Source: a virus | DNA: 64,000 nt | Reading direction: 5' to 3' (one strand) | Virus record (IMG/VR): IMGVR_UViG_3300010151_000007 | Span: 1 to 64,000 of that record | Shown here: positions 6,954 through 41,392 of the stretch, piece by piece | Layout: the number at the start of each line of letters is the position of its first letter | Position numbering within the stretch: position 1 is the stretch's first letter | Program-made: the position numbers and the translations under genes | The notes under the pieces: model-generated | What the model saw: only the letters and a program-made list of their open reading frames with translations | Told to the model about the DNA's origin: nothing | Databases searched by the model: none

Positions 6954-6971
6954 AAAGAGTCTATTTATACT

Positions 6972-28134: not shown

Positions 28135-29388
28135 ATGGAAAAAAAGAAGATATTGGTTTTAGCCGATCATCCCCTGGCACCCTCTGGTGTTGGCACACAG
28201 ACGAGATATATGATCGAAGCTTTGTTAGCCACTGATAGATACAAGTTTATTTGTTTTGGTGGTGCAGTCAAGCATCAGAACAACAATCCACAGAAAGTAG
28301 AAGGGTACGGTGACGATTGGATCATTTACCCTGTTGAGGGGTACGGTACTCAAGAGATGGTCCGTTCAGTTATGTGGACTGAAAGACCTGATGTGTTGTG
28401 GTTTATGACTGATCCCAGATTTTACGATTGGTTATGGGACATGGAAAACGAAATACGTCCAAATATGCCAATGGTTTATTACCATGTATGGGACAACTAC
28501 CCCTTACCCGTTTATAATAAACCTTCTTATGAATCAACGGATGTTATTGCCTGTATTTCTAAATTGACACACGAGATTGTCAAAAAGACTGCGCCAGATG
28601 TGGAGTCTTGTTATCTCCCTCATGCTGTTGACACAGGTATCTTCAGACCTTTAGAGAGGAGCGAAATAGCAGAATTTAAAAAGCAACAATTTGGTGAAGA
28701 TGATGCACGCTTCACTTTCTTCTGGAATAATCGAAACGCTCGTCGTAAGATGAGTGGTTCTCTTCTGTGGTGGTTCAACGAATTCGCTGAAGAGGTCGGC
28801 CCGGAAAACGTGCGATTAATTATGCACACCGATCCAAAAGACCCACATGGTCAGGATTTGGAAGCGATGATTTATTCCCTTGGCGCTGCTGACGGGCGCA
28901 TTATGTTGAGTAAACAGAAGGTACCCCCTGAAGTTCTGGCGATGATGTATAATGCTTGTGACGTGACTTTGAATATTTCAGACGCCGAAGGTTTTGGTTT
29001 GTCGACTTTGGAATCGTTGTCTTGTGCGACACCCATCGTTGTGAACCTTACAGGGGGTCTACAGGAGCAGGTGACGAACGGCGAAGACTGGTTCGGGATT
29101 GGTCTCAACCCGGCTTCTAAGGCTGTCATAGGCTCCCAGATGGTGCCTTACATCTATGAGGATCGAGTGTCCAAAGAGGATTTTATCGCAGCCCTTAAAA
29201 CTCTGTATAATATGCCTCGCGAAGAATTGGAACAGCTTGGGAGACACGGACACGGACATGTATTAAAGAATTACAATTTTGACCAGTTTTGTTCGCGCTG
29301 GGTCGATCTAATTGATAAGGTTGTGGAACAACACGGCTCTTGGGAAGAACGCAAGGGTTATAAATCATGGAGTTTGAGAGAAATATGA
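28135..29388 (+). CDS. GT-B (GT4-like) glycosyltransferase
   Basis: SGVGTQ, PHAVD, NNRN.RRK and EGFGL..LE. Confidence 0.88.
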   Translation: MEKKKILVLADHPLAPSGVGTQTRYMIEALLATDRYKFICFGGAVKHQNNNPQKVEGYGDDWIIYPVEGYGTQEMVRSVMWTERPDVLWFMTDPRFYDWLWDMENEIRPNMPMVYYHVWDNYPLPVYNKPSYESTDVIACISKLTHEIVKKTAPDVESCYLPHAVDTGIFRPLERSEIAEFKKQQFGEDDARFTFFWNNRNARRKMSGSLLWWFNEFAEEVGPENVRLIMHTDPKDPHGQDLEAMIYSLGAADGRIMLSKQKVPPEVLAMMYNACDVTLNISDAEGFGLSTLESLSCATPIVVNLTGGLQEQVTNGEDWFGIGLNPASKAVIGSQMVPYIYEDRVSKEDFIAALKTLYNMPREELEQLGRHGHGHVLKNYNFDQFCSRWVDLIDKVVEQHGSWEERKGYKSWSLREI

Positions 29389-30593
29389 GCTTAGTAAAAA
29401 GAAAGAAAGTTGTTGTAAAAGGTCCCGCTTTAACTCAATCTGGTTATGGCCATCATACTAGATTTGTTTTGTCCGCTCTCAAAGAACATCAGGACGAATT
29501 TGATGTGTTCTGTGTTCCGACTCAATGGGGTCAGACTGGCTGGATCCATGAGAATGGGGAGTTTCGTAAGTGGTTAGATAATGTCATCCTCAAAACAAAC
29601 CTGTATCTCCAGAATCGAGGTGAGTTTGATGTTTCTTTGCAAGTGACAATCCCTAATGAATGGCAGAAGATGGCCCCGATCAATGTTGGCGTGACTGCTG
29701 GTATTGAAACCACTAAAGTAGCTCCCGTCTGGCTTGAGAAAGGGAATTTGATGGATCATATCATTACCGTTTCAGAGCATTCTAAACAAGTTTACGAAAT
29801 GACGAAATATCAAGCCCAGCACTCCGTAACAAAGCAGCCGGTTGAATTGGAATTATTCACCGATATCGATGTTGTACACTACCCTCATCGTCTTGGAACC
29901 GAGACTATAGACTTGGAATTGGATTTTGATTTCAATTATCTGATGGTAGCTCAATGGGGTCCAAGAAAAAATATGGAACGCGCCCTCCGCTGGTGGTTGG
30001 AAGAAAACTTTGATAACGAAGTTGGGTTGGTCTTAAAAACTTCAGTTCGTAAGAATTGCACGATGGATAGGCACCAACTGGAGTTGCAACTCCAGAATTT
30101 TTTGCACAATTTTGAAGATCGGAAATGTAAGGTTTATCTTCTTCATGGAGATATGTCAAATAGTGAAATGGATGCAATTTATCGCCACCCAAAGATTAAA
30201 GCTATGTTGTCGGCGACACATGGTGAGGGTTTTGGGCTACCTTTGTTTGAGGCGGCTTATAATGGGTTGCCGGTCGTAGCGCCGGGTTGGTCTGGGCACT
30301 GTGATTTTCTTTACAGCAAAAACGAAAAAGGAAAAGTAAAGCCTTTGTTTTTGGAAGTTGATTATGAATTGGGGCAAATTCCAAAAGACGCTCATTGGGA
30401 AGGGGTGCTACAAGCTGACAGCATGTGGTCTTATGCGCAGGAGGGTTCTTTTAAAATGAAGGTTCGCCAAGTTCGAACATCTAATAAGAAATGGCAGAAA
30501 AAAGCCGAAATATTGCAGAAATATTTACTGGAAAGTTTTACACCAGAGATTCAAAATGCGAAAATGATTGAGTCGATAAAGAGTGTTTTGTGA
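29385..30593 (+). CDS. GT-B (GT4-like) glycosyltransferase
   Basis: SGYG.H, ETT, RKN and HGEGFGLPLFEA; ATGA-coupled start. Confidence 0.88.
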   Translation: MSLVKRKKVVVKGPALTQSGYGHHTRFVLSALKEHQDEFDVFCVPTQWGQTGWIHENGEFRKWLDNVILKTNLYLQNRGEFDVSLQVTIPNEWQKMAPINVGVTAGIETTKVAPVWLEKGNLMDHIITVSEHSKQVYEMTKYQAQHSVTKQPVELELFTDIDVVHYPHRLGTETIDLELDFDFNYLMVAQWGPRKNMERALRWWLEENFDNEVGLVLKTSVRKNCTMDRHQLELQLQNFLHNFEDRKCKVYLLHGDMSNSEMDAIYRHPKIKAMLSATHGEGFGLPLFEAAYNGLPVVAPGWSGHCDFLYSKNEKGKVKPLFLEVDYELGQIPKDAHWEGVLQADSMWSYAQEGSFKMKVRQVRTSNKKWQKKAEILQKYLLESFTPEIQNAKMIESIKSVL

Positions 30594-31351
30594 TACGGAA
30601 AACGAAGATTCTGAAAAAGAAGATTCAAACTTGCCTTGAATACGAAGATAAAATCCCATTCATAAAGGGTGCGTATCATGGCAAAACGTGTTACATTATA
30701 TCATGTGGCCCTTCATTAAAAGACATAGAACGGGACATTCTTCGTGAAAAACTTAAAGATGAATTCGTGGTTTGCATTAAACAGAGTTATGATCTCTATG
30801 GAGATATCTGTGATTTACACGTTTATAATTGTGCTAATTTTAAAGAATACGACTATTCTGTTAATCCAAGCTCTCTTATTATGGAATCCACATCACACCG
30901 ATATTTCTTGAATCCTAATTGTGACATCAAGACGTTCGTTGTGGGTCCTCGCGGTTTTGATCAAACAGTATCCGCTTTGGGTAATTTTGATGAATGGACT
31001 TTTGGTAAAACAAATATTAAAAGGCCGTATGGTCCGGGAATTATGTATGAGAATGTTTTTTTCATGATGGAGTTTCTGGGGGTCAAAAAGGTGGTAACGA
31101 TTGGTTGGGATTGTAATAGGAACACCGCTTCTGGCGTTCATTTTTATGATAATCGTAAAGTTAACGTTACACTCAATGATGCAGAGGTTAATGCAACGAT
31201 GGCATCTTTGCAAGCGGAAGATAAAGTTGCGGCCAATGCAATTGGTAAATGGAATGATTGGTTGGCCTCTAAAGAAATTGAGTTGAATGTTCTTTCGAAG
31301 CTCAACCCAGGCCCAGAGAGAATGAAGAGAATTACACTGGAGGAACTTTGA
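30590..31351 (+). CDS. Maf/DUF115/GT42-like putative nonulosonate transferase
   Basis: GKTCYIISCGPSL ... FLGVKKVVTIGWD ... HFYD. Confidence 0.65.
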   Translation: MIRKTKILKKKIQTCLEYEDKIPFIKGAYHGKTCYIISCGPSLKDIERDILREKLKDEFVVCIKQSYDLYGDICDLHVYNCANFKEYDYSVNPSSLIMESTSHRYFLNPNCDIKTFVVGPRGFDQTVSALGNFDEWTFGKTNIKRPYGPGIMYENVFFMMEFLGVKKVVTIGWDCNRNTASGVHFYDNRKVNVTLNDAEVNATMASLQAEDKVAANAIGKWNDWLASKEIELNVLSKLNPGPERMKRITLEEL

Positions 31352-32331
31352 AGAAAACGATTATGATTACCGGGGGAACCGGTTCTCTTGGAAAGGCTCT
31401 TATAAAGAAAATAAAGAAAGAACACCCTGATTGGAAGATCGTGGTATTTAGCCGCGACGAGGGAAAGCAGGCGCTCTCCTTTGGTAACGACCCAAGTATT
31501 GTCCGTATAATTGGCGATATCCGCGATCTAACCAAAGTCGACGTTAGCATGAGGTTACATAAACCAAATTATGTTATCCATGCTGCCGCTCTAAAACGAG
31601 TGGACGATATGGAATTCCATCCAGACGAGTGTGTAAAAACCAATGTCATAGGATCCCAAAACGTCGCCACTGCCGCATTAGCGAATAATGTTGAAAAGTG
31701 CATGCTGGTGTCTACCGATAAGGCATGCCAGCCAGTGAATGTGTACGGTTCTAGCAAGTTTATCGCTGAACGTGTATTTTCAAACTTTGATTATAACTCC
31801 GATTCTACCATCTTTGCTTCTGTACGATATGGAAACGTCATTGCGAGCCGAGGCTCCTTCATTCCAAACTGGATTGAAAAAATCAAGAATGGTGAAGAGA
31901 TCACAATTACAGACCCCGAGTGTACTCGGTTCTTGTTTACACTTGAAAACGCTGTTGACACTGTAATGACTTCAATGTTTTCTGCCATTGGTGGCGAAGT
32001 ATTTGTCCCCGGCTTAGATTCCTATACTATTCCGGATGTTATATGCGCCCTTGAACTAATCACTGGAGTGTGTAATGTGGAAACTCGTATTATTGGATTA
32101 AGACCGGGCGAGAAGCTTCACGAGGACATGATGTCCGAAACCGAAATGGACCGCGTGGTATCCGTTCAGCCAACAGAGAATTATCCTCTTTACGCGATTC
32201 TCCCTCAATTCACCAGAAAAGAAGGATATTCAACGGAGAAGTATGAAGGCGATCGGCTAAATTCAGGATTTTGTCTAGACAGCACACTGGAAAATCTTGT
32301 AGATAAGATTCGTGCTGGCGTTGTGCAATGA
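31348..32331 (+). CDS. pseB: UDP-GlcNAc 4,6-dehydratase (PseB/FlaA1-like)
   Basis: TGGTGSLG, FSRDE.KQ, HAAALK, STDKA..P.N.YG.SK, VRYGNV..SRGS and RPGEKLHE. Confidence 0.85.
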   Translation: MKKTIMITGGTGSLGKALIKKIKKEHPDWKIVVFSRDEGKQALSFGNDPSIVRIIGDIRDLTKVDVSMRLHKPNYVIHAAALKRVDDMEFHPDECVKTNVIGSQNVATAALANNVEKCMLVSTDKACQPVNVYGSSKFIAERVFSNFDYNSDSTIFASVRYGNVIASRGSFIPNWIEKIKNGEEITITDPECTRFLFTLENAVDTVMTSMFSAIGGEVFVPGLDSYTIPDVICALELITGVCNVETRIIGLRPGEKLHEDMMSETEMDRVVSVQPTENYPLYAILPQFTRKEGYSTEKYEGDRLNSGFCLDSTLENLVDKIRAGVVQ

Positions 32332-33410
32332 TCAAGTGCTTTGAGCCCACCATTGGGGAAGAAGAATCTCAATTCGTTTTAGGTCAATTGAAATTAAAAG
32401 AAATTGGTTTTGGTGATCAGGTTGCACGTTTTGAGAACCGATTTAGAGGCATGTCTGGATATGTTTACAACACTGGATTTAATTCGGCAAGCTCGGCAGC
32501 ATACGCTTTGTTTTCGTGGCTGAAAGAGTTGTATGGCTCGTGTGAGGTGTATACACCTTCACTGACATTCTGTTCTCCAATTTGGGCAGCCCTTGAAAAC
32601 GGACATGAAATTGTCTTTGTCGACATTGATAAAAATGGCTTATTCTCAATTGATGATTACAAGAAGAAGAAAAAGCAGGACTCTTCAAAGCGTAAAGTTG
32701 TTATGCCAATGATGTATGGCGGCGTGACGACTTTTGATTTTAGCAGATTCGACGGAAACGAGGTCACAATTTCAGATTCAGCACACGCTATTCATGCACC
32801 GAGCGAAGCTGGCAACCCCTCTGCGACACCTGAATTTACGATATTCTCTTTCCACCCAGTTAAGCCCATTTGTATGAGCAACGGTGGTATGTTATCGACC
32901 AGAAATAGGTCTGCTCATAAATATTTCAACCGGTATCGTAATTTTGGTAGAGTTAATACCGGTGTCTCGTATGATATTGTGCAGAATGGGTTTAACTTTT
33001 ACATGAATTCGCTGAACGCTGTCATTGGATTGGCGCAATTGAACAAAGTGTACGAAATGAGGAACCAGAGAGCACAGAATTTCAAATACTTAAAAAAGAG
33101 ACTGGAAGCTTTGAATATCTCGGGCTTTTATATGTTTGAGCACGATCTGCTTTCGTCTTTTTACCTCTGCACGTTTACTAGCGATTTTTTCTCCGGTGAT
33201 GTGATAAGGTTTCTTGAACAGCGAGGAATCCAGGCGACATATCATTATCCACCACTTCATAGAACAACACAGTTTAAAACGGAATGCGTCTTACCGAATA
33301 CAGAGGAGGTCTCTCAACATTTGGTGAATCTCCCGATTCATCAGAACTTGACCGATGAGAACTTAGACAAAATTGTATTAGCAATCGCAGACATGAAGAA
33401 GAAACTATAA
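32328..33410 (+). CDS. DegT/PseC-like PLP-dependent sugar aminotransferase
   Basis: DSAHA, FSFHPVK....NGG, GFN and LPIH. Confidence 0.85.
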   Translation: MIKCFEPTIGEEESQFVLGQLKLKEIGFGDQVARFENRFRGMSGYVYNTGFNSASSAAYALFSWLKELYGSCEVYTPSLTFCSPIWAALENGHEIVFVDIDKNGLFSIDDYKKKKKQDSSKRKVVMPMMYGGVTTFDFSRFDGNEVTISDSAHAIHAPSEAGNPSATPEFTIFSFHPVKPICMSNGGMLSTRNRSAHKYFNRYRNFGRVNTGVSYDIVQNGFNFYMNSLNAVIGLAQLNKVYEMRNQRAQNFKYLKKRLEALNISGFYMFEHDLLSSFYLCTFTSDFFSGDVIRFLEQRGIQATYHYPPLHRTTQFKTECVLPNTEEVSQHLVNLPIHQNLTDENLDKIVLAIADMKKKL

Positions 33411-34171
33411 TGGATATTGTTGTTTTAGGTACCGGTCATTCGGTTGCACACAACACCCAGAGTATAAAAGGGACAGATAAAAAGATCCTTGCATTCCATG
33501 AAGCTTTTCCTTATTGTCATTCGATGTACGACATAATTCCAGATTATTGGACATGGTTAGATCCCAATGCGGCAGTTAAGGGCATGAAATACTTACTAGC
33601 TTCAAAGGACGAGAGGTTGAAGAAAATGAAGATCCTCGTCCCTTCATTCGTAACAGATTCTTTTGCACATTTCAGGATGTATATGGGTACCACGCCTTTA
33701 GGGAGGCAACCGGGCGGCTGGGATGAATATCTTAATCTCCTCTATGCAATGGAAAATATTCAATCCATTGAAGCCACAACGATGAAATATAAAAAACTTG
33801 TCGGTCAAAAGCCCGGCTTAATGTTTGGTACATTTGAATTCGACTCTGAATCGGTTGTGGGAACACGATTCAAATGGGGTTTAGAAAACAAGCTTACAAG
33901 TGCTGTGTTACCCGTGTGCGCTTGGTTTTTGAATACCAAGAATATATACATCCTTGGATTTGATTTTATAGGACCAAGGTTCTTTTCGGAGGATGACCGC
34001 CACCCTTGGTCAGACTCCACTCAAAAGAAAATAGAGGCTCAAATACCATTAGAAGCTGTGCGAATTTGGATAAAATTGGTTGAACAGTCTGGGGTAAAGC
34101 TTTTCGTATCTTCTAAACCCGAACAAGTCGAATCCTTCCTACACGATGAATTAGAGTATGGTGAAATATGA
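33410..34171 (+). CDS. Maf/DUF115/GT42-like putative transferase
   Basis: IVVLGTGHS, IIPDYWTWLD and KNIYILGFD. Confidence 0.6.
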   Translation: MDIVVLGTGHSVAHNTQSIKGTDKKILAFHEAFPYCHSMYDIIPDYWTWLDPNAAVKGMKYLLASKDERLKKMKILVPSFVTDSFAHFRMYMGTTPLGRQPGGWDEYLNLLYAMENIQSIEATTMKYKKLVGQKPGLMFGTFEFDSESVVGTRFKWGLENKLTSAVLPVCAWFLNTKNIYILGFDFIGPRFFSEDDRHPWSDSTQKKIEAQIPLEAVRIWIKLVEQSGVKLFVSSKPEQVESFLHDELEYGEI

Positions 34172-35178
34172 AAAAGACCTTTATCATTGCGGAAGCTGGC
34201 GCGAACCACAACAAAGACTTGGCAATTGCTAAGCAATTGGTTAGGGTCGCAAGAGATGCCGGCTGTGATGCAGTAAAATTCCAGACATATTCTTCAGAGA
34301 CCTTGTATTCCAAGAATACACCTGATTTCGCAGGCTACCAGAATATCAACGATTTAATCAAATCAATTGAACTTCCGCGTGAGTGGCAGAAAATCCTCAA
34401 AGACTACTGCGATGGGTGTGGTATTGAATTTATGTCAACACCTTTTGACGAAGCTGCGGTTGATCAGTTGGTTGAACTTGGCGTTAAACGTTTCAAGATT
34501 GCAGGGTTTGAATCAACTGATCCGCGCTTTGTAAAATATGTAGCATCAAAGAACTTGCCTATTGTGTTTTCTTGTGGTATTGGTTCAAATTGCAGGAAAG
34601 CAGAAGAGACTTTCGAGTGGATTCGTTCTGTTGGGAATGATAAAGAAATTTGGATTTTACATTGCAATAATGCATATCCAACTCCAATATCCGATATTAA
34701 TCTAATCAACATTGCAGAGTTGGAGGATCTTTTTGATATGAGAAGGGTCAAGATTGGTCTGTCCGACCACACTATGAATCCATATATTCCTGCCATGGCA
34801 ATTATGAAAGGGGCGCAAGTAATAGAGAAACATTTTACTCTTTCGCGCTCTCTAAAGGGCCCTGATCATCCTTTTGCACTGGAACCAAGAGAATTGTACG
34901 AAATGGTTAAACAGATTAGGGTTGCGGAAAAAGCCATTGGTTGTCATAAAACTTCTCTCTACACTCAAAGTGAGGAAGAGTTCAAACAGGCAAGACGTTC
35001 AGTGGTTGCCAGGAAGGCTATTCCTGCTGGCACCATACTAACGGAAGCGTTGCTTACTACAAAAAGGCCGTTCATAAGTAACGCTATCTCTGCTGAACTT
35101 TATTATAAGATGATTGGTAAAACACTCTTGACAGACCTACAAGAAGACGATATATTAAAGGTAGAAAACATAAGGTAA
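34168..35178 (+). CDS. neuB: Nonulosonic acid synthase (NeuB/PseI family) with C-terminal SAF domain
   Basis: IIAEAGANHN, DAVKFQ, STPFD, LHC..AYP, GLSDHT, IEKHFT, GPDH and RRSVVA. Confidence 0.92.
   Translation: MKKTFIIAEAGANHNKDLAIAKQLVRVARDAGCDAVKFQTYSSETLYSKNTPDFAGYQNINDLIKSIELPREWQKILKDYCDGCGIEFMSTPFDEAAVDQLVELGVKRFKIAGFESTDPRFVKYVASKNLPIVFSCGIGSNCRKAEETFEWIRSVGNDKEIWILHCNNAYPTPISDINLINIAELEDLFDMRRVKIGLSDHTMNPYIPAMAIMKGAQVIEKHFTLSRSLKGPDHPFALEPRELYEMVKQIRVAEKAIGCHKTSLYTQSEEEFKQARRSVVARKAIPAGTILTEALLTTKRPFISNAISAELYYKMIGKTLLTDLQEDDILKVENIR
35128..35156 (+). promoter_or_regulatory. Sigma70-like promoter TTGACA-N17-TATATT
   Basis: Lies within the 3' end of neuB, upstream of 35181. Confidence 0.55.
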
Positions 35179-35180
35179 GA

Positions 35181-36512
35181 ATGAAGTTAACACATATTGC
35201 ATCTGCTACGACAATTGTAGAACACAACGGAGTCAAGATTCTCACGGATCCCTGGCTCATTGGTAAAGAGTTCTATGGTTCTTGGACCCACTATCCGCCA
35301 CTGAAGGTCGATTGGGATCTTGTCAACAGTGTAGACTATATTTATATCTCGCATATTCACCCGGATCATATGAGCCAAGCCACCTTAGCCATGATTGATC
35401 CGGATATTCCTGTTTTGATCCACAACTATGAGGCCAAGTTCGTCAAGAATAATCTTGAGCGATGGGGTCATGAAGTAATTGAGCTTAATCATGGGGAAAA
35501 GTTTGCTTGCGGAGGTGGTTTGAATATTCAAATCTTCGCCGCTGATAATTGCAATCCAGCATTATGTTACAAATTTTTTGGTTGTGGGAAAATGGAATCT
35601 AAAATGGGCTCTACAGGTATTGATACAATGGCTGTTTTTGAAAATAGTGAGAATGTTATTTTGAATATCAATGATTGCCCATATGATATAGCCCATGACA
35701 CTTTGGATTTGATTAAATCCGAATATTCAAAAATTGATCTTCTTTTAGTTGGTTACGCTGGCGCTGGTTCGTATCCACAGTGTTGGGATTATTCAGATGA
35801 AGATAAACTTGGTAAATACGGAAAGAAGAAAAAAACATATTTCCTTAATTCGGGAGTTAATATGATAAATCATGTGAACCCGGCTTACTACATGCCTTTT
35901 GCTGGAACATATACTTTAAACGGAAAGCATGCAACACTCGATAAATTCAGGGTGGTTCCTGAACTTCAAGATGCTCTCTCTTATTTTAAACACAACGATT
36001 GTCCCGGTCGTGGGGTGTTACTCAACCCTTGGGAACATTTTGAGTTAACTACTGGTTTGGTTTCCGCAGAATATGAACCGGTGGATTTAGTCGTTAAACA
36101 AAAATATATTGAAGAAACTCTTGTTCATTACAAATATACTTATGAAGATGATGAGCCGGTTGTTTTGTCTCAAATCACCGAACTGATCCCGGCTGCTTAT
36201 GAGGGATTCGAACGTAAAAGAAAGGAAATGAGGTTCTCAACAAAGACCAACGTTTATCTTTATCTTCCCGATGATAAAATGTTAAAGATTTCGATGTGTG
36301 GGAAGGGGTATGAATTGATTTCTCGAATTGATTTTAACGACGAGAAATATGTAACCTATAAAGTTGATGAAAAATTACTTTATCGTATATTGAAAGGTCC
36401 TCGTTTTGCCCATTGGAACAATGCTGAAATTGGTTCTCATATCATGTTTGCAAGAAAACCAGAAATCTATGAGCGTGCGTTGTATTTCTGCATGAATTAT
36501 TTCCACGCATGA
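35181..36512 (+). CDS. Metallo-beta-lactamase-fold protein resembling the catalytic region of CMP-Neu5Ac hydroxylase, without a Rieske domain
   Basis: DPWLIG..F...W.H.PP, IYISHIHPDH.S..TL, ILN.NDC, YAGAGSYP and YMPFAG.Y. Confidence 0.7.
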   Translation: MKLTHIASATTIVEHNGVKILTDPWLIGKEFYGSWTHYPPLKVDWDLVNSVDYIYISHIHPDHMSQATLAMIDPDIPVLIHNYEAKFVKNNLERWGHEVIELNHGEKFACGGGLNIQIFAADNCNPALCYKFFGCGKMESKMGSTGIDTMAVFENSENVILNINDCPYDIAHDTLDLIKSEYSKIDLLLVGYAGAGSYPQCWDYSDEDKLGKYGKKKKTYFLNSGVNMINHVNPAYYMPFAGTYTLNGKHATLDKFRVVPELQDALSYFKHNDCPGRGVLLNPWEHFELTTGLVSAEYEPVDLVVKQKYIEETLVHYKYTYEDDEPVVLSQITELIPAAYEGFERKRKEMRFSTKTNVYLYLPDDKMLKISMCGKGYELISRIDFNDEKYVTYKVDEKLLYRILKGPRFAHWNNAEIGSHIMFARKPEIYERALYFCMNYFHA

Positions 36513-36518
36513 GGTAAA

Positions 36519-37046
36519 ATGCTACAAGGTAAAAAGACGAGATTGGTTTCTGTAAAGAGGTGTAATCTTGAACGATTGCGAAACTGGCGAAATGAGCCAG
36601 AGCTACGCAAGTATTTCCGAGAATACCGCGAAATAAGCCCCGAAATGCAGGAAAAGTGGTTCCAGAAGATTCAGAACGACCCCGATCAGGTGAATTTCGA
36701 GATACGGACTGAATTTGGTACTAAGTTAATTGGTCATTGCGGTTTATACTACATTGACTGGCGTGCGCGCCATGCAGAGTTCGGTGTGTATATTGGCAAC
36801 AAGGAATTTCGTTCAGGTGGCTATGGTTCTGATGCATTGCGAACCCTGTTCAAATATGGTTTCAACGATTTGAATTTGAACAAGATTCATTGCGAAGTAT
36901 ATTCGAATAATGCTTCTTACGATGTATATCGCCATCTTGGCTTCAAAGACGAGGGTGTTTTGCGACAACACTATTTCAGCGAAGGACAATATTGGGATTC
37001 AAAAATGATGAGTCTATTGAGGGAAGAACATGAAAGTATGGAATAA
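36519..37046 (+). CDS. GNAT N-acetyltransferase (PseH/RimJ-like)
   Basis: WRN, IGHCGL..ID, AEFGVYIG, GYG, LNLNKI.CEV..NN and GFK.EG.LR. Confidence 0.85.
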   Translation: MLQGKKTRLVSVKRCNLERLRNWRNEPELRKYFREYREISPEMQEKWFQKIQNDPDQVNFEIRTEFGTKLIGHCGLYYIDWRARHAEFGVYIGNKEFRSGGYGSDALRTLFKYGFNDLNLNKIHCEVYSNNASYDVYRHLGFKDEGVLRQHYFSEGQYWDSKMMSLLREEHESME

Positions 37047-37998
37047 TTGCAGACTCTGTGAAGAAGAAACAATCGGCGGTCATCGAGCTACTGCTTATGA
37101 TATTTATCGTTCACAATTGAAGATGCAGGTTGAGAATGTGTGGTATGATCAGGAAACGAATGAGTGTTTTGGTTTGGATTACAATTATACAAACAGACCA
37201 GATTTAGCCGCTGTTTTAACTCCAAAGAATAGATTTCATCAATCAGAAAGATGGGGTAAAGAGTATGTTTCGACAAGGTATAACACTATCTTTAATTCTA
37301 CAATGGAATGTTCTGATGAAATGATTCTCATTAATCCACAATTGCTTGAGCAATTCGAAGGAAAGACAATTCTCATTGTTGGTGCAGGCCCCTCTGCAAA
37401 AGAGTGTGATTGGGAAAAAGAAGATTATGATACAATTTGGACGTGTAACCATTTTTTTAGATTTGACAGATTGGTGAAACGCGAAGATGTGTCTTTAATC
37501 AGTCTTGGGAGCGAAGTTGACTTGACAGAATCCAATAATGTGTTACATTTATATATGAGAAAGAATGATGACGTTCTTTTTGCATTTGATTGTGGAGCGA
37601 CCCGCCCGTTTATGCATATGTACGATTTTAACGACCAATATCATGGTCGCGGATTGTGCTATCATCCTAGATTCTTTGGTAAAGTTGGAACAATCACGAG
37701 GTTGATTTGTTTGGCGATTGCTGCAAAAGCAAAGAAAATCAAGTTTGTTGGAATGGATGGAGTTTTGAAAGATGGTCCAAACGTTAATATATTCGAACCC
37801 GGCAAACCTTTCACCGGCCCAAATAAATATTCATTGTTTAATCAACAGTATGTTATGTTTTGGGATTACGTGTTGAATACGTTGCAGCCGAATATAGAAT
37901 TTGAGAATCTTGGTGAATATCACGAATCGAATATAACTGCGGGAATTTCAAAGTTAGAATTTGAAACATATAATAAGAGAGTTAGAGAAAATGTTTAG
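37030..37998 (+). CDS. Maf/DUF115/GT42 (CstII-like) putative nonulosonate transferase
   Basis: GKTILIVGAGPS, IWTCNHF and AKKIKFVGMD. Confidence 0.65.
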   Translation: MKVWNNCRLCEEETIGGHRATAYDIYRSQLKMQVENVWYDQETNECFGLDYNYTNRPDLAAVLTPKNRFHQSERWGKEYVSTRYNTIFNSTMECSDEMILINPQLLEQFEGKTILIVGAGPSAKECDWEKEDYDTIWTCNHFFRFDRLVKREDVSLISLGSEVDLTESNNVLHLYMRKNDDVLFAFDCGATRPFMHMYDFNDQYHGRGLCYHPRFFGKVGTITRLICLAIAAKAKKIKFVGMDGVLKDGPNVNIFEPGKPFTGPNKYSLFNQQYVMFWDYVLNTLQPNIEFENLGEYHESNITAGISKLEFETYNKRVRENV

Positions 37999-38125
37999 TC
38001 CTTATGTGGACTCTTTAGAGTTGCCATTCTTTTTGGCAGAAATTGACTCTCACGTAATGTTTGCGAGAAAGCCAGAGATCTATGAACGTGCATTGAATTT
38101 CTGTATAAATTACTTCCACGTATGA
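37991..38125 (+). pseudogene. 44-codon ORF carrying a diverged copy of the last 29 residues of 35181..36512
   Basis: 38036-38125 matches 36423-36512 at 74/90 nt and 24/29 aa, including the TGA. Confidence 0.85.
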
Positions 38126-38133
38126 GAAATATA

Positions 38134-38970
38134 ATGACTTATATAATAGCTGAAATTGGAATTAATCATAATGGAGATTTAGAAACGGCGAAACGCCTAA
38201 TTGATGTAGCAGCCGCTTCCGGTTGTGATGCTGTCAAGTTTCAAAAAAGAAATCCCGACGTATGCGTGCCAGAACATCAAAAGGGGATTATGAGAGAAAC
38301 TCCTTGGGGCTGCATGACATATTTAGAATATAAATACAGAGTAGAATTTGGTAAGAAAGAATATGACGAAATTGATCGTTATTGTAGAACAAAAGAAATA
38401 GAATGGTCTGCTTCCCCATGGGATATTGATAGTTTAAATTTTTTGAAAGAATATGATTTACCATGGATAAAGGTACCTTCTGCTATGCTTACAAATGTTG
38501 AACTGTTGACTGCCGCGTTGGAGACAGAGAAAAAGTTGATAATTTCAACAGGTATGAGTACAAAACTAGAAATTCAACATACAGTTGATTACATTGTCAA
38601 ACGAAATCCAAATATAGAATTAGTTTTGCTTCATTGCAATTCAACATACCCCGCCCCATTAAAGGAACTGAATTTAAAATGTATTCAAACCCTTAAAGAA
38701 GATTATCCCTTTGCGGAAATAGGGTATAGCGGTCACGAATTTAGATTAGGCACTACGGTATCATCAATTTATTTAGGGGCAACATATCTAGAAAGACACA
38801 TCACGTTAGATAGAACTATGTGGGGTTCTGACCACCTTTCCTCTGTCGAACCACAAGGTTTGTTTAAATTAGTAAAAGGTGTTAGAGAACTAGAACTAGC
38901 CCTTGGTGACGGACAAATACAAGTGTATGATGGTGAAAAAGCAGCTAGGTTAAAGTTGAGAGGATATTGA
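38134..38970 (+). CDS. neuB: Second, short NeuB-family synthase lacking the SAF domain
   Basis: IIAEIGINHNG, DAVKFQKR, SPWD, LHCNSTYP, GYSGHE, ERHITLDR and GSDH. Confidence 0.9.
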   Translation: MTYIIAEIGINHNGDLETAKRLIDVAAASGCDAVKFQKRNPDVCVPEHQKGIMRETPWGCMTYLEYKYRVEFGKKEYDEIDRYCRTKEIEWSASPWDIDSLNFLKEYDLPWIKVPSAMLTNVELLTAALETEKKLIISTGMSTKLEIQHTVDYIVKRNPNIELVLLHCNSTYPAPLKELNLKCIQTLKEDYPFAEIGYSGHEFRLGTTVSSIYLGATYLERHITLDRTMWGSDHLSSVEPQGLFKLVKGVRELELALGDGQIQVYDGEKAARLKLRGY

Positions 38971-38977
38971 ATGTGTA

Positions 38978-39445
38978 ATGATTGCAAACAAGAGAAACGA
39001 TTGTTTTATAGGTCAGATAAGAATGAATAACAATACACCAGAAATAGAGGGTATCATGTTTGGAAGTTTGTTGGCACTGGGAAAAGAGCAAGATAAGCTC
39101 AACATGAAGATTGTCCCCAAAGGTTGGGGATATGAGAAATGGATTGTCAACAAAGAAGAATATTGTGGCAAGTTATTGCACTTTCATAAAGGTAAACAAT
39201 GTTCTTGGCATTTTCATAAAGTGAAAGATGAAGTCTTTTATGTTTTGTCTGGTTGTCTCCGTGTTACTTTCGCTGAACACGATGACATTGAAAATGCTTA
39301 TACGATGGAATTAGGTCCTGGCGAACGCTTTCACGTTCCAGTTGGCTTGAGGCACAGAATGTACGCACTTGAGGAAACTCAAATGTTTGAATTCTCAACG
39401 ACTCATTGGGATGAGGATTCGATAAGAATCGAGAAGGGGGATTGA
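38978..39445 (+). CDS. Cupin, sugar(-phosphate) isomerase-like (start may be 39104)
   Basis: VPKGWG.E.W, CSWHFHKVKDE.FYV, P.GLRHR and EFST.H. Confidence 0.75.
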   Translation: MIANKRNDCFIGQIRMNNNTPEIEGIMFGSLLALGKEQDKLNMKIVPKGWGYEKWIVNKEEYCGKLLHFHKGKQCSWHFHKVKDEVFYVLSGCLRVTFAEHDDIENAYTMELGPGERFHVPVGLRHRMYALEETQMFEFSTTHWDEDSIRIEKGD

Positions 39446-40201
39446 ATGAAAAAGATTGAAGACATTTGTGTAATCGTTCAAGGACGACTCTCCTCTGAAC
39501 GTTGCCCAAAAAAGATGATTAGACCATTTGCGGGCTCAAACTTGCTCGACAAGTGTTTGCGACTTCTCATGAAGTGCGAAGTTCTCCCCAAAGAGAATAT
39601 CTTCCTCTCTGTTCACGAACCCGAACTTCAGGAAATTGGAACAGATTTGGGGATCAATGTGTTTCCTCGTTCAGAAAAGTCTGCACTGTGGGATGGTGGC
39701 GAAGGTGCTCACCTTTGTGATATGTATGAATGGTGGGATAAACTTCCATTTAAGTACGTGGTATTAATTAACGCATGTACACCAATGATTAAGCCAGAAA
39801 CAATTGATGGTTTTTTGAATTACTATATGGAATCTGATTCTGATGGTTTGTTTGGTGTTATTGAAAAACAAAACTACTTTTGGAACCAATCTGGAAAGAT
39901 GATTTCAATTTGGCCAGAGTCGGAAACAGTGATGAATACTAAAGCTGTAGAAGCTACATATGAAGCTGCCCATTGCCTTTATGCTGGTCGCATGGACTTG
40001 ATCGGCGAAGGTATCTGGATGGGAGACTTTCAGAAAGAGGGTGATATTGAATTATACCCTATGGCTGAAGAAGAAATCTATGATATTGATTATGAGTGGC
40101 AATTTGGCTTAGTGGAAGCAATCTTCAAACACGTGTACCCTGAATGGTATTTAGAGGCTCCTGGATATATGTACGAGGATTGGAAAGATGATATGGTTTG
40201 A
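39446..40201 (+). CDS. neuA: CMP-nonulosonate synthetase (NeuA/PseF-like cytidylyltransferase)
   Basis: VQGRLSSERCPKKMIRPFAG, C.P and DIDYEWQF. Confidence 0.82.
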   Translation: MKKIEDICVIVQGRLSSERCPKKMIRPFAGSNLLDKCLRLLMKCEVLPKENIFLSVHEPELQEIGTDLGINVFPRSEKSALWDGGEGAHLCDMYEWWDKLPFKYVVLINACTPMIKPETIDGFLNYYMESDSDGLFGVIEKQNYFWNQSGKMISIWPESETVMNTKAVEATYEAAHCLYAGRMDLIGEGIWMGDFQKEGDIELYPMAEEEIYDIDYEWQFGLVEAIFKHVYPEWYLEAPGYMYEDWKDDMV

Positions 40202-41057
40202 TGATGAACGCTGTTTTCATGGCGGCACCGAAGAAATGTCAAGATATATTAGTGCTCTAGAGGAGAGAAAAACACAATATGGTGATTCTGTAGATTTGAA
40301 ATTGAAGGAAAAGCACTATGATGTTATACAAAATTTGAAACAAAAAGGGTTTCACATAATCCCTAATGTGTTTTCGGAAGAAACACTTGATACAATTCGG
40401 GCTGAAATGTCACAAAAACTGCAACGAGGTGAGGATCTTTGGAAAGGAATAACACTTCCGGAGGAATTTCTTAAATCTGTTGTACCATTTGTATCAATTG
40501 AACAACCTCTTTTCAATTGTCCGTCCGTCAAAGAGATTATATTTCACGATCTACTAGAAGAGATTGCAACTGTATATCTCAATTGTAAGCCTGCTGTTGG
40601 CACATTTAATCTTCGAAAAAGCTTTATAAATACTTTACCAGACCAAGAAACACAACTTTATCATTGTGACAAAAATAGCATTAAGTTAATGAAGTTTTTT
40701 GTTTATTTAAACGACGTTGGCCCCTACGGTGGTCCCTTGACTATTGTCGAAGGTAGTCATCGCTTAAAACCAGAGATTTGGGAATCTAAATATCGTTGGA
40801 CAGATAAGGAGGTAGAAGAAATGTATCCCGGCATGGTTCGTCATATTGAAGCTAAAGCGGGAGATTTGATTATTGGTATTACTACTGGTTTTCACAAAGG
40901 ATTGAAGCCTATCGCAAATGAAAGAAGCATGTTGACAGTTAATTACACGGTGCATCCAGAAAACTGGAAGCCTATCACTTTTAAGATGCGTCAGGCAGAT
41001 TATTTGGATTTACCGGAAAAAAAGAAACCTCTAACTGATTTTTTGAGGAAAGAATGA
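40188..41057 (+). CDS. PhyH-like Fe(II)/2-oxoglutarate dioxygenase
   Basis: YHCD, KFFVYLNDV...GP...V.GSH, AGD and FHKG...R. Confidence 0.85.
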   Translation: MIWFDDERCFHGGTEEMSRYISALEERKTQYGDSVDLKLKEKHYDVIQNLKQKGFHIIPNVFSEETLDTIRAEMSQKLQRGEDLWKGITLPEEFLKSVVPFVSIEQPLFNCPSVKEIIFHDLLEEIATVYLNCKPAVGTFNLRKSFINTLPDQETQLYHCDKNSIKLMKFFVYLNDVGPYGGPLTIVEGSHRLKPEIWESKYRWTDKEVEEMYPGMVRHIEAKAGDLIIGITTGFHKGLKPIANERSMLTVNYTVHPENWKPITFKMRQADYLDLPEKKKPLTDFLRKE

Positions 41058-41392
41058 TATATTTTGTTGACATTGATGAGACAATCTGTTATTATGAAAC
41101 AGAAGAGAAGATTTTTGTCGATGGTATTGAGACTAGAAATTACCTTTTGGCAAAACCTTGTAGAGAAAGAATTGTAAAAATTAATAAACTATACGAAGAA
41201 GGAAATAGTATTGTATATTGGACTGCTAGAGGCTCCATCACTGGTTTGGACTGGACGGCGCTAACAGGAGCACAATTGAAACACTGGGGTGCAAAACATC
41301 ATAAGCTAATATTGGGTAAGCCATATTATGATGTTTTCATCGACGACAAGAACATAAATTCAGATAGATTTTTTGGAGAAAATAATGAATAA
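41054..41392 (+). CDS. Small HAD phosphatase (capsule-biosynthesis type)
   Basis: VDIDETI, WTARG, GKP and FIDDK. Confidence 0.85.
   Translation: MIYFVDIDETICYYETEEKIFVDGIETRNYLLAKPCRERIVKINKLYEEGNSIVYWTARGSITGLDWTALTGAQLKHWGAKHHKLILGKPYYDVFIDDKNINSDRFFGENNE

What the first reader, a model, noticed from the sequence alone, without database searches (positions are those of the whole stretch)
28135..41392. Phage-encoded double nonulosonic-acid pathway with three Maf-like transferases
Seen in sequence: 15 contiguous genes. Arm 1 is a PseB-like dehydratase, PseC-like aminotransferase, PseH-like GNAT and a SAF-containing synthase. Arm 2 is a short synthase, an isomerase-like cupin, a CMP-synthetase and a HAD phosphatase. 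There are also two GT4 enzymes, three Maf/GT42-like proteins and two possible tailoring oxygenases. Established knowledge: arm 1 mirrors pseudaminic acid synthesis, and a synthase plus phosphatase mirrors the 9-phosphate (KDN/Neu5Ac-9-P) route. Maf proteins O-glycosylate flagellin with such sugars. Inference: the phage makes two different, possibly novel, sialic-acid-like sugars to coat its virion or the host surface.
Basis: partly seen in the sequence, partly recalled or inferred. Interest (0 to 1): 0.8.

Follow-up and report, generated by a model that had tools for sequence, protein, structure and literature searches.

The report
Phage island for sialic-acid-like sugars
An uncultured marine T4-like phage carries 15 tightly packed genes that look able to make, decorate, activate and attach two different sialic-acid-like sugars, and versions of this island sit at the same spot in hundreds of related uncultured phages, although no experiment yet shows what gets coated.

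Summary
Window 28135-41392 carries 15 co-directional, mostly overlapping genes in a phage record that encodes a T4 gp23-type capsid protein.

- **Arm 1:** PseB-, PseC- and PseH-like enzymes plus a long NeuB with a SAF domain.
- **Arm 2:** a short NeuB without SAF, a metal cupin, the record's only CMP-sugar synthetase, a PhyH dioxygenase and a 112-residue HAD phosphatase.
- **Transferases:** two GT4 enzymes and three small proteins of the sialyltransferase/Maf/MptE fold.

- The "MBL oxygenase" is a Rieske-less homologue of NamH/CMAH, the hydroxylases that turn N-acetyl into N-glycolyl.
- PseG and NeuC are absent.
- The "Maf" proteins are only the catalytic core. One is closer to GT42 Cst-I/II.

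In 80 related IMG/VR loci the island follows PhoH and the exonuclease. Its core is GT4a, GT4b, Maf1, NeuB2, Maf3 and the CMP-synthetase. The Pse arm (36%), HAD (41%), cupin (16%) and NamH-like gene (10%) are optional cassettes.

Two sugars are plausible. Their identity and the acceptor are untested. All 15 proteins lack membrane segments, which favours a soluble acceptor such as virion protein.

This scan has already noted phage nonulosonate islands, and the Rieske-less NamH-like enzyme, on other DNA.

The parts
28135..29388 (+). GT4a, a GT-B family 4 glycosyltransferase
   Evidence: PF00534 40.7 bits, phrog_2170 1.4e-22. Follows the exonuclease gene in 49 of 80 related loci.
29367..30593 (+). 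GT4b, a second and more diverged GT4 glycosyltransferase
   Evidence: PF00534 26.7 bits (cut-off 26.4), phrog_2170 6.6e-15. Present in 56 of 80 related loci.
30590..31351 (+). Maf1, a 253-aa MptE-like (sialyltransferase/Maf-fold) protein with a GPS nucleotide-binding motif
   Evidence: Own Pfam MptE-like E 0.003. Five of seven homologues carry PF01973 and one is fused to a GT4 domain. Fused to GT4 in L001. Atlas clusters are MptE-like and mostly viral. hhalign to the Maf2 family gives 78% probability.
31348..32331 (+). PseB-like UDP-GlcNAc 4,6-dehydratase (short SDR, Polysacc_synt_2)
   Evidence: PF02719 7.8e-83. TIGR03589 PseB 274.5 bits (cut-off 407.75) against FnlA 215 and LegB 38.
32328..33410 (+). 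PseC-like PLP-dependent sugar aminotransferase
   Evidence: PF01041 1.2e-50. TIGR03588 PseC 143.5 bits is the best match but below the cut-off of 423.5.
33410..34171 (+). Maf2, a 253-aa Maf-core-like protein set inside the Pse arm
   Evidence: AF2 model pLDDT 88.3. VIA-align: Maf 5mu5_A Z 13.4 (188 aa, rmsd 3.7), Cst-I Z 10.4, MptE HPPK Z 10.2. Foldseek top hits are sialyltransferases. Rare in relatives, 2 of 80.
34168..35178 (+). NeuB1, a long nonulosonate synthase with a C-terminal SAF domain (PseI-like by context)
   Evidence: NeuB 2.2e-72 plus SAF 2.3e-10. TIGR03569 302.6 and TIGR03586 262.5 bits, both below cut-off. Best PDB match is C. jejuni PseI 8h2c. Falls in the clade of PseB/PseC-adjacent synthases.
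35181..36512 (+). Rieske-less NamH/CMAH-like MBL-fold protein (HIHPDH motif, C124-x4-C129-x5-C135 loop). Candidate N-acyl hydroxylase that tailors the arm-1 sugar.
   Evidence: hhalign to the mycobacterial MBL+SCP2_Rv3818+Rieske protein: 99.8%, E 2e-29 over residues 1-439. Atlas TM 0.85 to Rieske-bearing NamH-like and CMAH-family clusters. Foldseek top hit is the CmlA diiron hydroxylase, tied with MBL hydrolases. Occurs only with PseB in relatives, 8 of 8.
36519..37046 (+). PseH-like GNAT N-acetyltransferase
   Evidence: TIGR03585 PseH 89.8 bits against a cut-off of 93.1. Acetyltransf_3 5.7e-20. In relatives it occurs only where NeuB1 is present, 15 of 15.
37030..37998 (+). Maf3, a GT42-like (Cst-I/Cst-II-like) candidate nonulosonate transferase with an extra N-terminal domain of about 100 aa
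   Evidence: The family profile hits Cst-I at 3.9e-7 and Cst-II at about 1e-6. One homologue carries PF06002. Present in 72 of 80 related loci, often in two or three copies.
38036..38125 (+). Diverged copy (about 82% identical) of the last 90 nt of the NamH-like gene, lying in the only intergenic gap. A recombination scar bracketing the PseH+Maf3 cassette.
   Evidence: Alignment of 36400-36530 with 38013-38143 and the sequence itself.
38122..38970 (+). NeuB2, a short nonulosonate synthase without a SAF domain. The core synthase of the island.
   Evidence: NeuB 8.5e-72, no SAF. Best PDB match is the 290-aa synthase 6ncs. At least 554 IMG/VR stretches encode relatives. Falls in a separate 67-row clade with 99% support.
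38978..39445 (+). Metal-binding cupin (HxH..E..H). Candidate sugar or sugar-phosphate isomerase, or a dioxygenase.
   Evidence: Cupin_2 1.3e-9, phrog_7851 1.2e-51, weak WbuC and PMI-domain hits. PDB matches are oxalate decarboxylase cupins and ribose/lyxose isomerases. Adjacent to NeuB2 in L001, L009 and L010.
39446..40201 (+). CMP-nonulosonate synthetase, the only cytidylyltransferase in the record
   Evidence: CTP_transf_3 1.2e-9. PDB NeuA 7e-5 and murine CMP-Neu5Ac synthetase 1.3e-4. Single hit in the record. Present in 65 of 80 relatives.
40188..41057 (+). PhyH-family Fe(II)/2-oxoglutarate dioxygenase (H159-x-D161), a candidate tailoring hydroxylase
   Evidence: PF05721 32.8 bits against a cut-off of 22. 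The order CMPt-Maf3-PhyH recurs in relatives, and all 17 PhyH loci also hold Maf3.
41054..41392 (+). Minimal 112-aa capless HAD phosphatase (D6-x-D8-x-T10, GKP, DD)
   Evidence: phrog_1238 2.9e-26, motifs in the translation, PDB 9iqw 'capsule biosynthesis protein' 2.5e-9. Within a few kb of NeuB2-type genes, and directly adjacent in most, in L006, L008, L092, L093, L131, L135 and L137.

Best explanation
The island is a modular, phage-borne system for glycosylation with nonulosonic (sialic-acid-like) sugars. It works in the cytoplasm of the infected cell.

**Core, shared by most relatives**
- NeuB2 condenses PEP with a host-supplied aldose or aldose phosphate.
- Where they are present, the cupin may supply that substrate by isomerisation and the small HAD may remove a terminal phosphate.
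- The single CMP-synthetase activates the product.
- GT42-like Maf3 and MptE-like Maf1 transfer it.
- GT4a and GT4b add hexose-type residues. PhyH may hydroxylate the sugar.

**Optional arm 1, present here**
- PseB-like dehydratase, PseC-like aminotransferase and PseH-like acetyltransferase make a UDP-2,4-diacetamido-2,4,6-trideoxyhexose.
- NeuB1 converts it to a 5,7-diacetamido nonulosonate of pseudaminic type.
- The Rieske-less NamH/CMAH-like enzyme most likely hydroxylates an N-acetyl group to N-glycolyl.
- Maf2 is the arm's own transferase.
- The UDP-releasing step (PseG) must come from the host or from an unrecognised phage protein.

**Acceptor**
The island has no membrane protein, flippase or lipid-carrier transferase. 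The acceptor is therefore most likely a soluble protein, plausibly a virion protein.

**Shown:** gene content, family and fold relationships, modular distribution.
**Inferred:** substrates, products, order of steps and acceptor.
For: - Family and fold assignments.
- Two synthase clades that match the two gene contexts.
- Arm-1 genes travel together in 80 related phage loci. NeuB1 occurs with PseB in 27 of 29, PseH with NeuB1 in 15 of 15, and the NamH-like gene with PseB in 8 of 8.
- The core (NeuB2 80, Maf3 72, CMPt 65, GT4b 56, GT4a 49, Maf1 45 of 80) sits at a fixed site after PhoH and the exonuclease.
- GT4 and Maf1 are fused in L001 and in protein P0020.
- NeuB2 and HAD lie in the same locus, mostly side by side, in phage and cellular loci. 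A Pelagibacter locus has a SIS isomerase, a short NeuB and a CMP-transferase in a row.
- The NamH/CMAH homology covers the full length.
- In four of five cellular genomes checked, the NamH-like gene lies in a cluster that also has PseG, so it is an extra tailoring enzyme and not a PseG substitute.
- None of the 15 proteins has a hydrophobic 19-mer above 1.6.
- The genes are tightly packed like an operon.
Against: - PseG and NeuC are absent, and there is only one cytidylyltransferase.
- All Pse-type HMM scores are below the curated cut-offs.
- HAD and cupin are missing from most related islands within 7 kb, so a 9-phosphate route is not obligatory.
- The NamH-like protein lacks the Rieske domain. 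No Rieske gene is in the phage record or next to cellular homologues. Its fold matches MBL hydrolases as well as the CmlA hydroxylase.
- The MptE/Maf fold is shared with pyrophosphokinases.
- No acceptor was identified, and nothing has been tested at the bench.
- The phage record is only 55% complete.
Confidence: 0.6

Rival explanations
1. Host-surface remodelling. The island makes CMP-activated sugars and short glycans that the host's own membrane machinery puts on LPS, capsule, S-layer or flagellin. This would block superinfection or stop progeny phage from sticking to debris.
For: - Sugar clusters in the T4-like cyanophage P-SSM2 were read this way (PMC1079782).
- The missing PseG implies dependence on a host that already runs such a pathway.
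- NeuB2-type and NamH-like genes are common in marine Pelagibacteraceae, Flavobacteriales and archaea.
Against: - The island has no flippase, polymerase, lipid-carrier transferase or any membrane protein.
- It carries five transferase-like genes of its own, which it would not need if it only supplied precursors.
- The phage is lytic and T4-like.
Confidence: 0.25
2. Only one sugar is really made. Arm 1 is inert without PseG, or both synthases feed one product pool that the single CMP-synthetase activates. The second synthase would then be a redundant or alternative-substrate paralogue.
For: - There is one cytidylyltransferase and no PseG.
- L001 carries two short NeuB genes and no Pse arm.
- Most relatives carry only NeuB2.
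Against: - The two synthases share about 30% identity and lie in separate clades with different neighbours.
- Arm-1 genes are retained as a coherent, intact cassette in 29 of 80 relatives.
- Arm 1 has its own transferase-like gene, Maf2.
Confidence: 0.2
3. The small MptE-like proteins (Maf1, Maf2) are not glycosyltransferases. They would be pyrophosphokinase-type or other nucleotide-binding enzymes that act on a pathway intermediate.
For: - The Maf2 model also matches MptE HPPK (Z 10.2) and thiamin pyrophosphokinases (Z 6-8).
- The Pfam hits are to the MptE-like family, not to a transferase family.
Against: - The best structural matches are Maf (Z 13.4) and the sialyltransferases Cst-I, ST8SiaIII and ST3Gal.
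- Maf1 is fused to a GT4 domain in relatives.
- The context holds a CMP-sugar synthetase.
Confidence: 0.1
4. The transferases decorate phage DNA or another nucleic acid rather than protein.
For: - GT4a reaches the cut-off of Pfam 'GT4 in conflict systems' (27.5 against 26 bits).
- T-even phages glycosylate their DNA (established knowledge).
Against: - The record has no credible dCMP or dUMP hydroxymethylase. The only Thymidylat_synt hit is 13 bits at E 0.001.
- No nonulosonate-modified DNA is known.
- Maf and GT42 enzymes act on proteins and glycans.
Confidence: 0.04

Closest known systems
Bacterial CMP-pseudaminic acid pathway with flagellin O-glycosylation (PseB, PseC, PseH, PseG, PseI, PseF plus Maf; Campylobacter, Helicobacter, Aeromonas)
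   Same: - PseB-, PseC- and PseH-type enzymes are each the best NCBIfam match.
- A NeuB-family synthase with a SAF domain has PseI as its nearest solved structure.
- A CMP-synthetase is present.
- A protein with the Maf catalytic-core fold lies in the same operon.
   Different: - No PseG.
- Every score is under the equivalog cut-off.
- The cytidylyltransferase is not PseF-like (26 bits).
- The Maf-like proteins are 253-322 aa cores without the flanking domains of the roughly 600-aa Maf.
- The genes are in a lytic T4-like phage and there is no flagellar context.
CAZy GT42 sialyltransferases Cst-I and Cst-II of Campylobacter jejuni (Pfam PF06002)
   Same: The Maf3 family profile aligns to Cst-I and Cst-II across the nucleotide-binding GxGPS motif and the GxD motif (E 4e-7 to 2e-6). 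One family member carries PF06002.
   Different: - Extra N-terminal domain of about 100 aa.
- No Pfam PF06002 hit for the window protein itself.
- The position where most family members have His is Asn in this protein (alignment). A counterpart of the Cst-II catalytic His was not established.
NamH (Rv3818, UDP-N-acetylmuramate hydroxylase of mycobacteria) and animal CMP-Neu5Ac hydroxylase CMAH
   Same: Full-length homology of the MBL body plus the SCP2_Rv3818-like domain (hhalign 99.8%; predicted-structure TM 0.85). Conserved HxHxDH motif. Sits in a pathway that makes N-acetylated nucleotide sugars.
   Different: - No Rieske [2Fe-2S] domain, and no Rieske gene nearby in the phage or in cells.
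- It has a C-x4-C-x5-C loop that NamH lacks.
- Hydroxylase activity is unproven for the whole Rieske-less family.
KDN / Neu5Ac 9-phosphate routes (Bacteroides thetaiotaomicron KDN-9-P synthase plus KDN-9-P phosphatase; animal NANS plus NANP)
   Same: A NeuB-family synthase sits beside a HAD phosphatase and a CMP-synthetase. A possible isomerase could feed it a sugar phosphate.
   Different: - The HAD is a 112-aa minimal form with no match to KdsC- or NANP-type families.
- HAD and cupin are optional in related islands.
- The substrate is unknown.
Sugar ('LPS') gene clusters of marine T4-like cyanophages such as P-SSM2, and virion glycosylation in mycobacteriophages
   Same: A large block of carbohydrate genes in a lytic marine myovirus (PMC1079782). 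Self-encoded glycosyltransferases lie close to structural genes.
   Different: - tblastn of the two synthases against 50,697 GenBank phage records found matches in only two phage records, both uncultured, plus one Moritella viscosa bacterial contig that is filed in the phage collection.
- The NamH-like protein found none.

Membership tests
CMP-pseudaminic acid pathway | PseB: inverting UDP-GlcNAc 4,6-dehydratase (TIGR03589 equivalog) | tested here: inconclusive
   Best NCBIfam hit, 274.5 bits, but the cut-off is 407.75. FnlA scores 215 and LegB 38.
CMP-pseudaminic acid pathway | PseC aminotransferase (TIGR03588) | tested here: inconclusive
   Best hit, 143.5 bits, against a cut-off of 423.5.
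CMP-pseudaminic acid pathway | PseH GNAT N-acetyltransferase (TIGR03585) | tested here: inconclusive
   89.8 bits against a cut-off of 93.1, full-length match.
CMP-pseudaminic acid pathway | PseG UDP-sugar hydrolase (TIGR03590) | tested here: not met
   No match at E<=1 in the 100-kb record. Also none in related phage locus L002. The record is 55% complete.
CMP-pseudaminic acid pathway | PseI synthase (TIGR03586) | tested here: inconclusive
   NeuB1 scores 262.5 bits (cut-off 340.25), and the NeuB model scores higher at 302.6. The nearest PDB sequence is PseI 8h2c. It falls in the clade of PseB/PseC-adjacent synthases.
CMP-pseudaminic acid pathway | PseF cytidylyltransferase (TIGR03584) | tested here: not met
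   26.2 bits against a cut-off of 205.7. Only the generic CTP_transf_3 family is met.
Maf (motility accessory factor) flagellin glycosyltransferases | Central MptE-like/GT catalytic domain | tested here: met
   Maf2 model against 5mu5_A residues 273-506: Z 13.4, rmsd 3.7 over 188 aa. Shown for Maf2 only. Maf1 rests on Pfam hits of its homologues.
Maf (motility accessory factor) flagellin glycosyltransferases | Flanking N- and C-terminal domains of the roughly 600-aa protein, and a flagellar or flagellin context | tested here: not met
   The proteins are 253, 253 and 322 aa. The host element is a T4-like phage.
CAZy GT42 (PF06002, Cst-I/Cst-II) | Sequence membership in PF06002 | tested here: inconclusive
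   The window protein has no PF06002 hit at E 0.01. The family profile hits Cst-I at 3.9e-7, and one homologue carries PF06002.
CAZy GT42 (PF06002, Cst-I/Cst-II) | Catalytic base equivalent to Cst-II His188 | not tested
   The profile alignment ends before that region. No model was made of Maf3.
NamH / CMAH N-acetyl-sugar hydroxylases | MBL (UlaG-like) domain with HxHxDH plus the SCP2_Rv3818-like domain | tested here: met
   hhalign 99.8%, E 2e-29 over residues 1-439. TM 0.85 to NamH-like and CMAH-family clusters. HIHPDH at 58-63.
NamH / CMAH N-acetyl-sugar hydroxylases | Rieske [2Fe-2S] domain | tested here: not met
   No Rieske motif in the protein or in 89 full-length relatives. No PF00355 hit in the record. 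None adjacent in five cellular genomes.
KDN-9-P / Neu5Ac-9-P route | NeuB-family synthase paired with a dedicated HAD phosphatase | tested here: inconclusive
   A HAD with an intact DxDxT motif lies in the same operon and next to NeuB2-type genes in several loci. It is present in only 33 of 80 relatives and has no KdsC or NANP family match.
KDN-9-P / Neu5Ac-9-P route | A phosphorylated aldose (Man-6-P or ManNAc-6-P) as substrate | not testable with these tools
   Needs an enzyme assay.
GT4 glycosyltransferases | Pfam Glycos_transf_1 over the gathering score | tested here: met
   40.7 and 26.7 bits against a cut-off of 26.4.
PhyH Fe(II)/2OG dioxygenases | PF05721 over the cut-off, with an HxD motif | tested here: met
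   32.8 bits against 22. H159-C-D161 in the translation.

The most novel reading that the evidence does not exclude
A whole lineage of abundant marine T4-like phages coats its own particles with two self-made sialic-acid-like sugars. One would be a KDN-type acid made straight from a central sugar phosphate. The other would be an N-glycolylated pseudaminic-type acid, produced by a Rieske-less CMAH/NamH-type hydroxylase that draws electrons through a private Cys3 loop. That would be the first N-glycolyl nonulosonate pathway outside animals, and the first activity assigned to a prokaryotic family of more than 6000 proteins.
Probability: 0.15. Interest if true: 0.85.

Novelty: new variant of a known kind. 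Interest (0 to 1): 0.6.

Why it matters
Nonulosonic acids are best known as bacterial surface and flagellar sugars and as animal sialic acids. Their synthesis by phages did not turn up in the seven full-text literature searches run here. Among 50,697 GenBank phage records, only two uncultured phage records hold a NeuB-family gene, yet at least 554 IMG/VR stretches do.

If these abundant ocean phages glycosylate their particles or their hosts with such sugars, that would affect adsorption, host range, grazing and recognition. It would also add an overlooked sink and source of acidic sugars in seawater.

The island also gives a compact, natural test bed for three open questions:
- What short, SAF-less NeuB enzymes make.
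- What the large Rieske-less NamH/CMAH-like family does. N-glycolyl bacterial nonulosonates have been suspected but have no known enzyme (PMC5378307).
- What minimal Maf/GT42-core transferases accept.

Tried and rejected
**Tried without result**
- megablast of the whole island, and tblastn of Maf3 and of the NamH-like protein, against GenBank phages found nothing.
- A single-sequence pattern scan for Maf3 in IMG/VR found nothing. The NeuB2 alignment scan succeeded.
- The Maf1 family profile found no PDB sequence.
- hhalign among the three Maf-like families was weak: 8%, 13% and 78%.
- The T4 late-promoter motif TATAAATA is not enriched, 6 found against 3.4 expected.
- Literature searches found no paper on phage-encoded nonulosonate synthesis.
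Neighbourhoods were therefore read from the search for related loci with local tblastn.

**Considered and rejected**
- The MBL protein is not a substitute for PseG. PseG lies in the same cluster as its cellular homologues in four of five genomes.
- It is not a split CMAH with a stand-alone Rieske partner. None is adjacent in five genomes and none is in the phage record.
- The region is not host contamination or a chimera. GC content, strand, synteny and phage flanks all agree.

**Limits**
- No characterised NeuB, LegI, PseI or KDN-9-P synthase sequences could be brought into the tree. Clades are labelled only by gene context.
- The tree is the quick version. The careful search did not finish.
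- Fisher tests are descriptive only, because the loci are related and cut at +/-7 kb.

Full report
**1. What is there**

Window 28135-41392 holds 15 ORFs on the + strand. Most are joined by 1-22 nt overlaps or gaps of 8 nt or less. The one exception is a 123-nt gap before 38122. GC content (0.37-0.43) matches the flanks.

The window is part of a 100,326-bp IMG/VR virus record, estimated 55% complete. The record encodes a T4 gp23-type major capsid protein (E 1e-62). PhoH and an exonuclease lie just upstream, and a baseplate-wedge protein lies downstream. The island is therefore part of a T4-like phage genome and not a host fragment.

**2. Gene by gene**

| Gene | Coordinates | Evidence |
|---|---|---|
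| GT4a, GT4b | 28135-30593 | Both pass the Glycos_transf_1 cut-off |
| PseB-like | 31348-32331 | TIGR03589 274.5 bits (FnlA 215, LegB 38) |
| PseC-like | 32328-33410 | TIGR03588 143.5 bits |
| PseH-like GNAT | 36519-37046 | TIGR03585 89.8 bits against a cut-off of 93.1 |
| NeuB1 | 34168-35178 | NeuB plus SAF; nearest solved sequence is C. jejuni PseI |
| NeuB2 | 38122-38970 | Full NeuB domain, no SAF; nearest to the 290-aa synthase 6ncs |
| Cupin | 38978-39445 | HxH..E..H metal motif; matches only generic cupins, weakly WbuC, a PMI domain and sugar isomerases |
| CMP-synthetase | 39446-40201 | CTP_transf_3; nearest solved relatives are CMP-sialic acid synthetases |
| PhyH | 40188-41057 | Passes PF05721 |
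| HAD | 41054-41392 | 112 aa with DxDxT, GKP and DD motifs; phrog_1238 3e-26; 'capsule biosynthesis protein' 9iqw 2.5e-9 |

All the Pse-type matches are the best available but fall below the equivalog cut-offs.

**3. The three 'Maf-like' proteins**

Taken alone they are marginal MptE-like hits, and they are not detectably similar to each other by BLAST. Stronger tests support the fold:
- **Maf3.** A 13-member family profile hits the GT42 sialyltransferases Cst-I and Cst-II at 4e-7 to 2e-6 across the GxGPS and GxD motifs. One member carries PF06002.
- **Maf2.** An AlphaFold model (pLDDT 88.3) is closest to the catalytic domain of Magnetospirillum Maf (Z 13.4, 188 aa, rmsd 3.7). Next come Cst-I (Z 10.4) and MptE HPPK (Z 10.2). 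Foldseek lists ST8SiaIII, Cst-I and Cst-II first.
- **Maf1.** Its homologues carry PF01973 and are fused to GT4 domains both in a database protein and in locus L001. Atlas neighbours are viral MptE-like clusters.

'Maf/GT42-like' is therefore right at the fold level. These are 253-322 aa cores without the flanking domains of true Maf. The fold is also shared with pyrophosphokinases.

**4. The 'MBL oxygenase'**

Gene 35181-36512 belongs to a very large family, with 2462 representatives at E<1e-3. Some IMG records name it 'UDP-MurNAc hydroxylase'.

Evidence for the NamH/CMAH relationship:
- A family profile aligns over residues 1-439 with a mycobacterial protein whose Pfam architecture is MBL + SCP2_Rv3818 + Rieske, the NamH architecture. 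The hhalign probability is 99.8% at E 2e-29. PMC10050696 describes NamH's domains.
- The Atlas structure search gives TM 0.85 to Rieske-bearing NamH-like clusters and to a cluster named for CMP-Neu5Ac hydroxylase.

Evidence that limits the reading:
- The phage protein and 89 full-length relatives lack any Rieske motif. 55 of the 89, and the phage protein, carry a C-x4-C-x5-C loop (C124, C129, C135) that falls in a gap of the NamH alignment.
- No Rieske gene is in the phage record, and none is adjacent in five cellular genomes.
- Foldseek's top hit is the diiron hydroxylase CmlA, but ordinary MBL hydrolases score equally.

Context:
- The family sits within 10 kb of NeuB, PseB or PseC genes in about a quarter of 80 cellular loci.
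- In four of five such genomes a PseG hit lies in the same cluster.
- In related phage loci it occurs only with PseB, 8 of 8.

I read it as a tailoring enzyme of the Pse-type arm, most likely an N-acyl hydroxylase. It is not a PseG substitute. Activity is unproven.

**5. What is missing**

PseG (TIGR03590) and NeuC/LegG (TIGR03568) give no hit in the record. CTP_transf_3 gives only the one gene. The related phage locus L002 reads NeuB2-PseB-PseC-NeuB1-methyltransferase-GNAT-NamH-like-CMPt-Maf3-PhyH and also lacks PseG.

Arm 1 therefore needs a host PseG or an unrecognised hydrolase. One cytidylyltransferase must serve both arms.

**6. Two arms, tested by distribution**

*Abundance.* A NeuB2 alignment found at least 554 relatives in IMG/VR.

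*Core.* In the best 80 loci (+/-7 kb) the island follows PhoH and the exonuclease.

| Core gene | Loci of 80 |
|---|---|
| NeuB2 | 80 |
| Maf3 | 72 |
| CMP-synthetase | 65 |
| GT4b | 56 |
| GT4a | 49 |
| Maf1 | 45 |

| Optional gene | Loci of 80 |
|---|---|
| HAD | 33 |
| PseB | 33 |
| NeuB1 | 29 |
| PhyH | 17 |
| PseC | 15 |
| PseH | 15 |
| Cupin | 13 |
| NamH-like | 8 |
| Maf2 | 2 |

*Linkage.* NeuB1 and PseB co-occur in 27 of 29 loci. PseH occurs only with NeuB1. The cupin never occurs with NeuB1 in these truncated windows.

*Tree.* A quick maximum-likelihood tree of 88 synthases puts NeuB1 in a 17-row clade (SH-aLRT 95) of long enzymes beside PseB/PseC. That clade includes those in PseG-containing clusters. 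NeuB2 falls in a 67-row clade (99) of short enzymes that holds every HAD-adjacent case.

*Cellular and GenBank relatives.*
- NeuB2-type genes are next to a HAD in the Kyanoviridae record MH319754, and about 3 kb from one in the 484-kb phage LR756508.
- Adjacent HADs also occur in several cellular loci.
- A Pelagibacter locus reads SDR-SIS isomerase-short NeuB-unknown-CMP-transferase-aminotransferase.

The two arms are real and separable, and arm 2 is the ancestral core. Because HAD and cupin are optional, the 9-phosphate (KDN-like) route stays a reasonable guess and not a finding. Man-6-P is attractive only because a minimal island must use a ubiquitous host metabolite.

**7. Mosaic history**

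The last 90 nt of the NamH-like gene recur, about 82% identical, at 38036-38125 in the only intergenic gap. The two copies bracket PseH+Maf3. This is a recombination scar. It fits the cassette-like variation among relatives.

**8. Acceptor**

None of the 15 proteins has a hydrophobic 19-residue window above 1.6. The island has no flippase, polymerase or lipid-carrier transferase. It does hold five transferase-like genes.

This favours direct glycosylation of a soluble acceptor in the cytoplasm, as Maf does with flagellin. Virion proteins are the obvious candidates, but nothing here shows it. Host-surface remodelling, as proposed for P-SSM2 (PMC1079782), remains a serious rival.

**9. Novelty**

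- GenBank phages (50,697 records) hold NeuB-family genes in only two uncultured phage records, plus one Moritella viscosa bacterial contig filed in that collection. They hold no NamH-like gene.
- The searched literature has no paper on phage nonulosonate synthesis.
- N-glycolyl bacterial nonulosonates have been suspected without a known enzyme (PMC5378307).
- CMAH homologues in about 60 prokaryotes were noted without any function (PMC5767959).
- This scan has already recorded phage nonulosonate islands in at least eight other genomes. It has also recorded the Rieske-less NamH-like enzyme in PseG-less phage operons. I reached the same reading of that enzyme before seeing those notes.

What is particular here:
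- Two synthase arms in one island.
- The T4-like lineage and the fixed genomic site.
- The near-maximal set of accessory cassettes, including the rare Maf2.
- The visible recombination scar.

**10. Verdict**

This is a new, phage-borne and modular variant of known nonulosonate glycosylation systems. It is of solid interest, with chemistry and target still to be shown.

Noticed in passing
window 36423-36512 and 38036-38125: The 3' end of the NamH-like gene is duplicated (about 82% identical) in the only intergenic gap of the island. The two copies bracket the PseH+Maf3 pair, which looks like a scar of cassette exchange between related phages.
   Followed up: partly
window 35550-35585 (residues 124-135 of the protein at 35181-36512): A C-(N/D)-P-x2-C-x5-C loop is conserved in 55 of 89 full-length Rieske-less family members. 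It falls in a gap of the alignment to Rieske-bearing NamH, and AlphaFold confidence is low across residues 134-142. It may be a metal or Fe-S site standing in for the missing Rieske domain.
   Followed up: partly
L094 (JACAFS010000045.1, binned as a Thaumarchaeota MAG), 1-7478: This 7.5-kb contig reads GT4b-Maf1-NeuB2 (72% identical)-CMPt-PseB-NeuB1. It has the same architecture as the phage island, so it is probably a phage contig binned into an archaeal MAG.
   Followed up: no
L001:3756-5768: A 670-aa ORF fuses a GT4 domain to a Maf1-type MptE-like domain. A 415-aa database protein (P0020) has the same pair of Pfam families. The two enzyme types probably act on one glycan.
   Followed up: partly
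L151-L230 (80 IMG/VR loci): The cupin and the Pse arm (NeuB1) never occur together in these +/-7 kb windows (0 of 13 against 29 of 67), although both are present in this window. This may be real mutual exclusion or an effect of the window size.
   Followed up: no
L122:7411-7989 (Candidatus Pelagibacter sp. HIMB1444): A SIS-domain sugar-phosphate isomerase sits directly upstream of a short NeuB2-type synthase and a CMP-transferase. It is a cellular counterpart of the cupin-NeuB2-CMPt arrangement and hints at a phosphorylated substrate.
   Followed up: no
window 41587-41832: A small ORF just downstream of the island carries a Zn_ribbon_8 domain (E 9e-10). The neighbouring ORF 41832-42176 has an N-terminal hydrophobic segment, the only one near the island.
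   Followed up: no
window 9330-9611, inside the 1456-aa ORF 7716-12086: A very weak thymidylate-synthase-like stretch (13 bits, E 0.001). It is probably noise.
   Followed up: no
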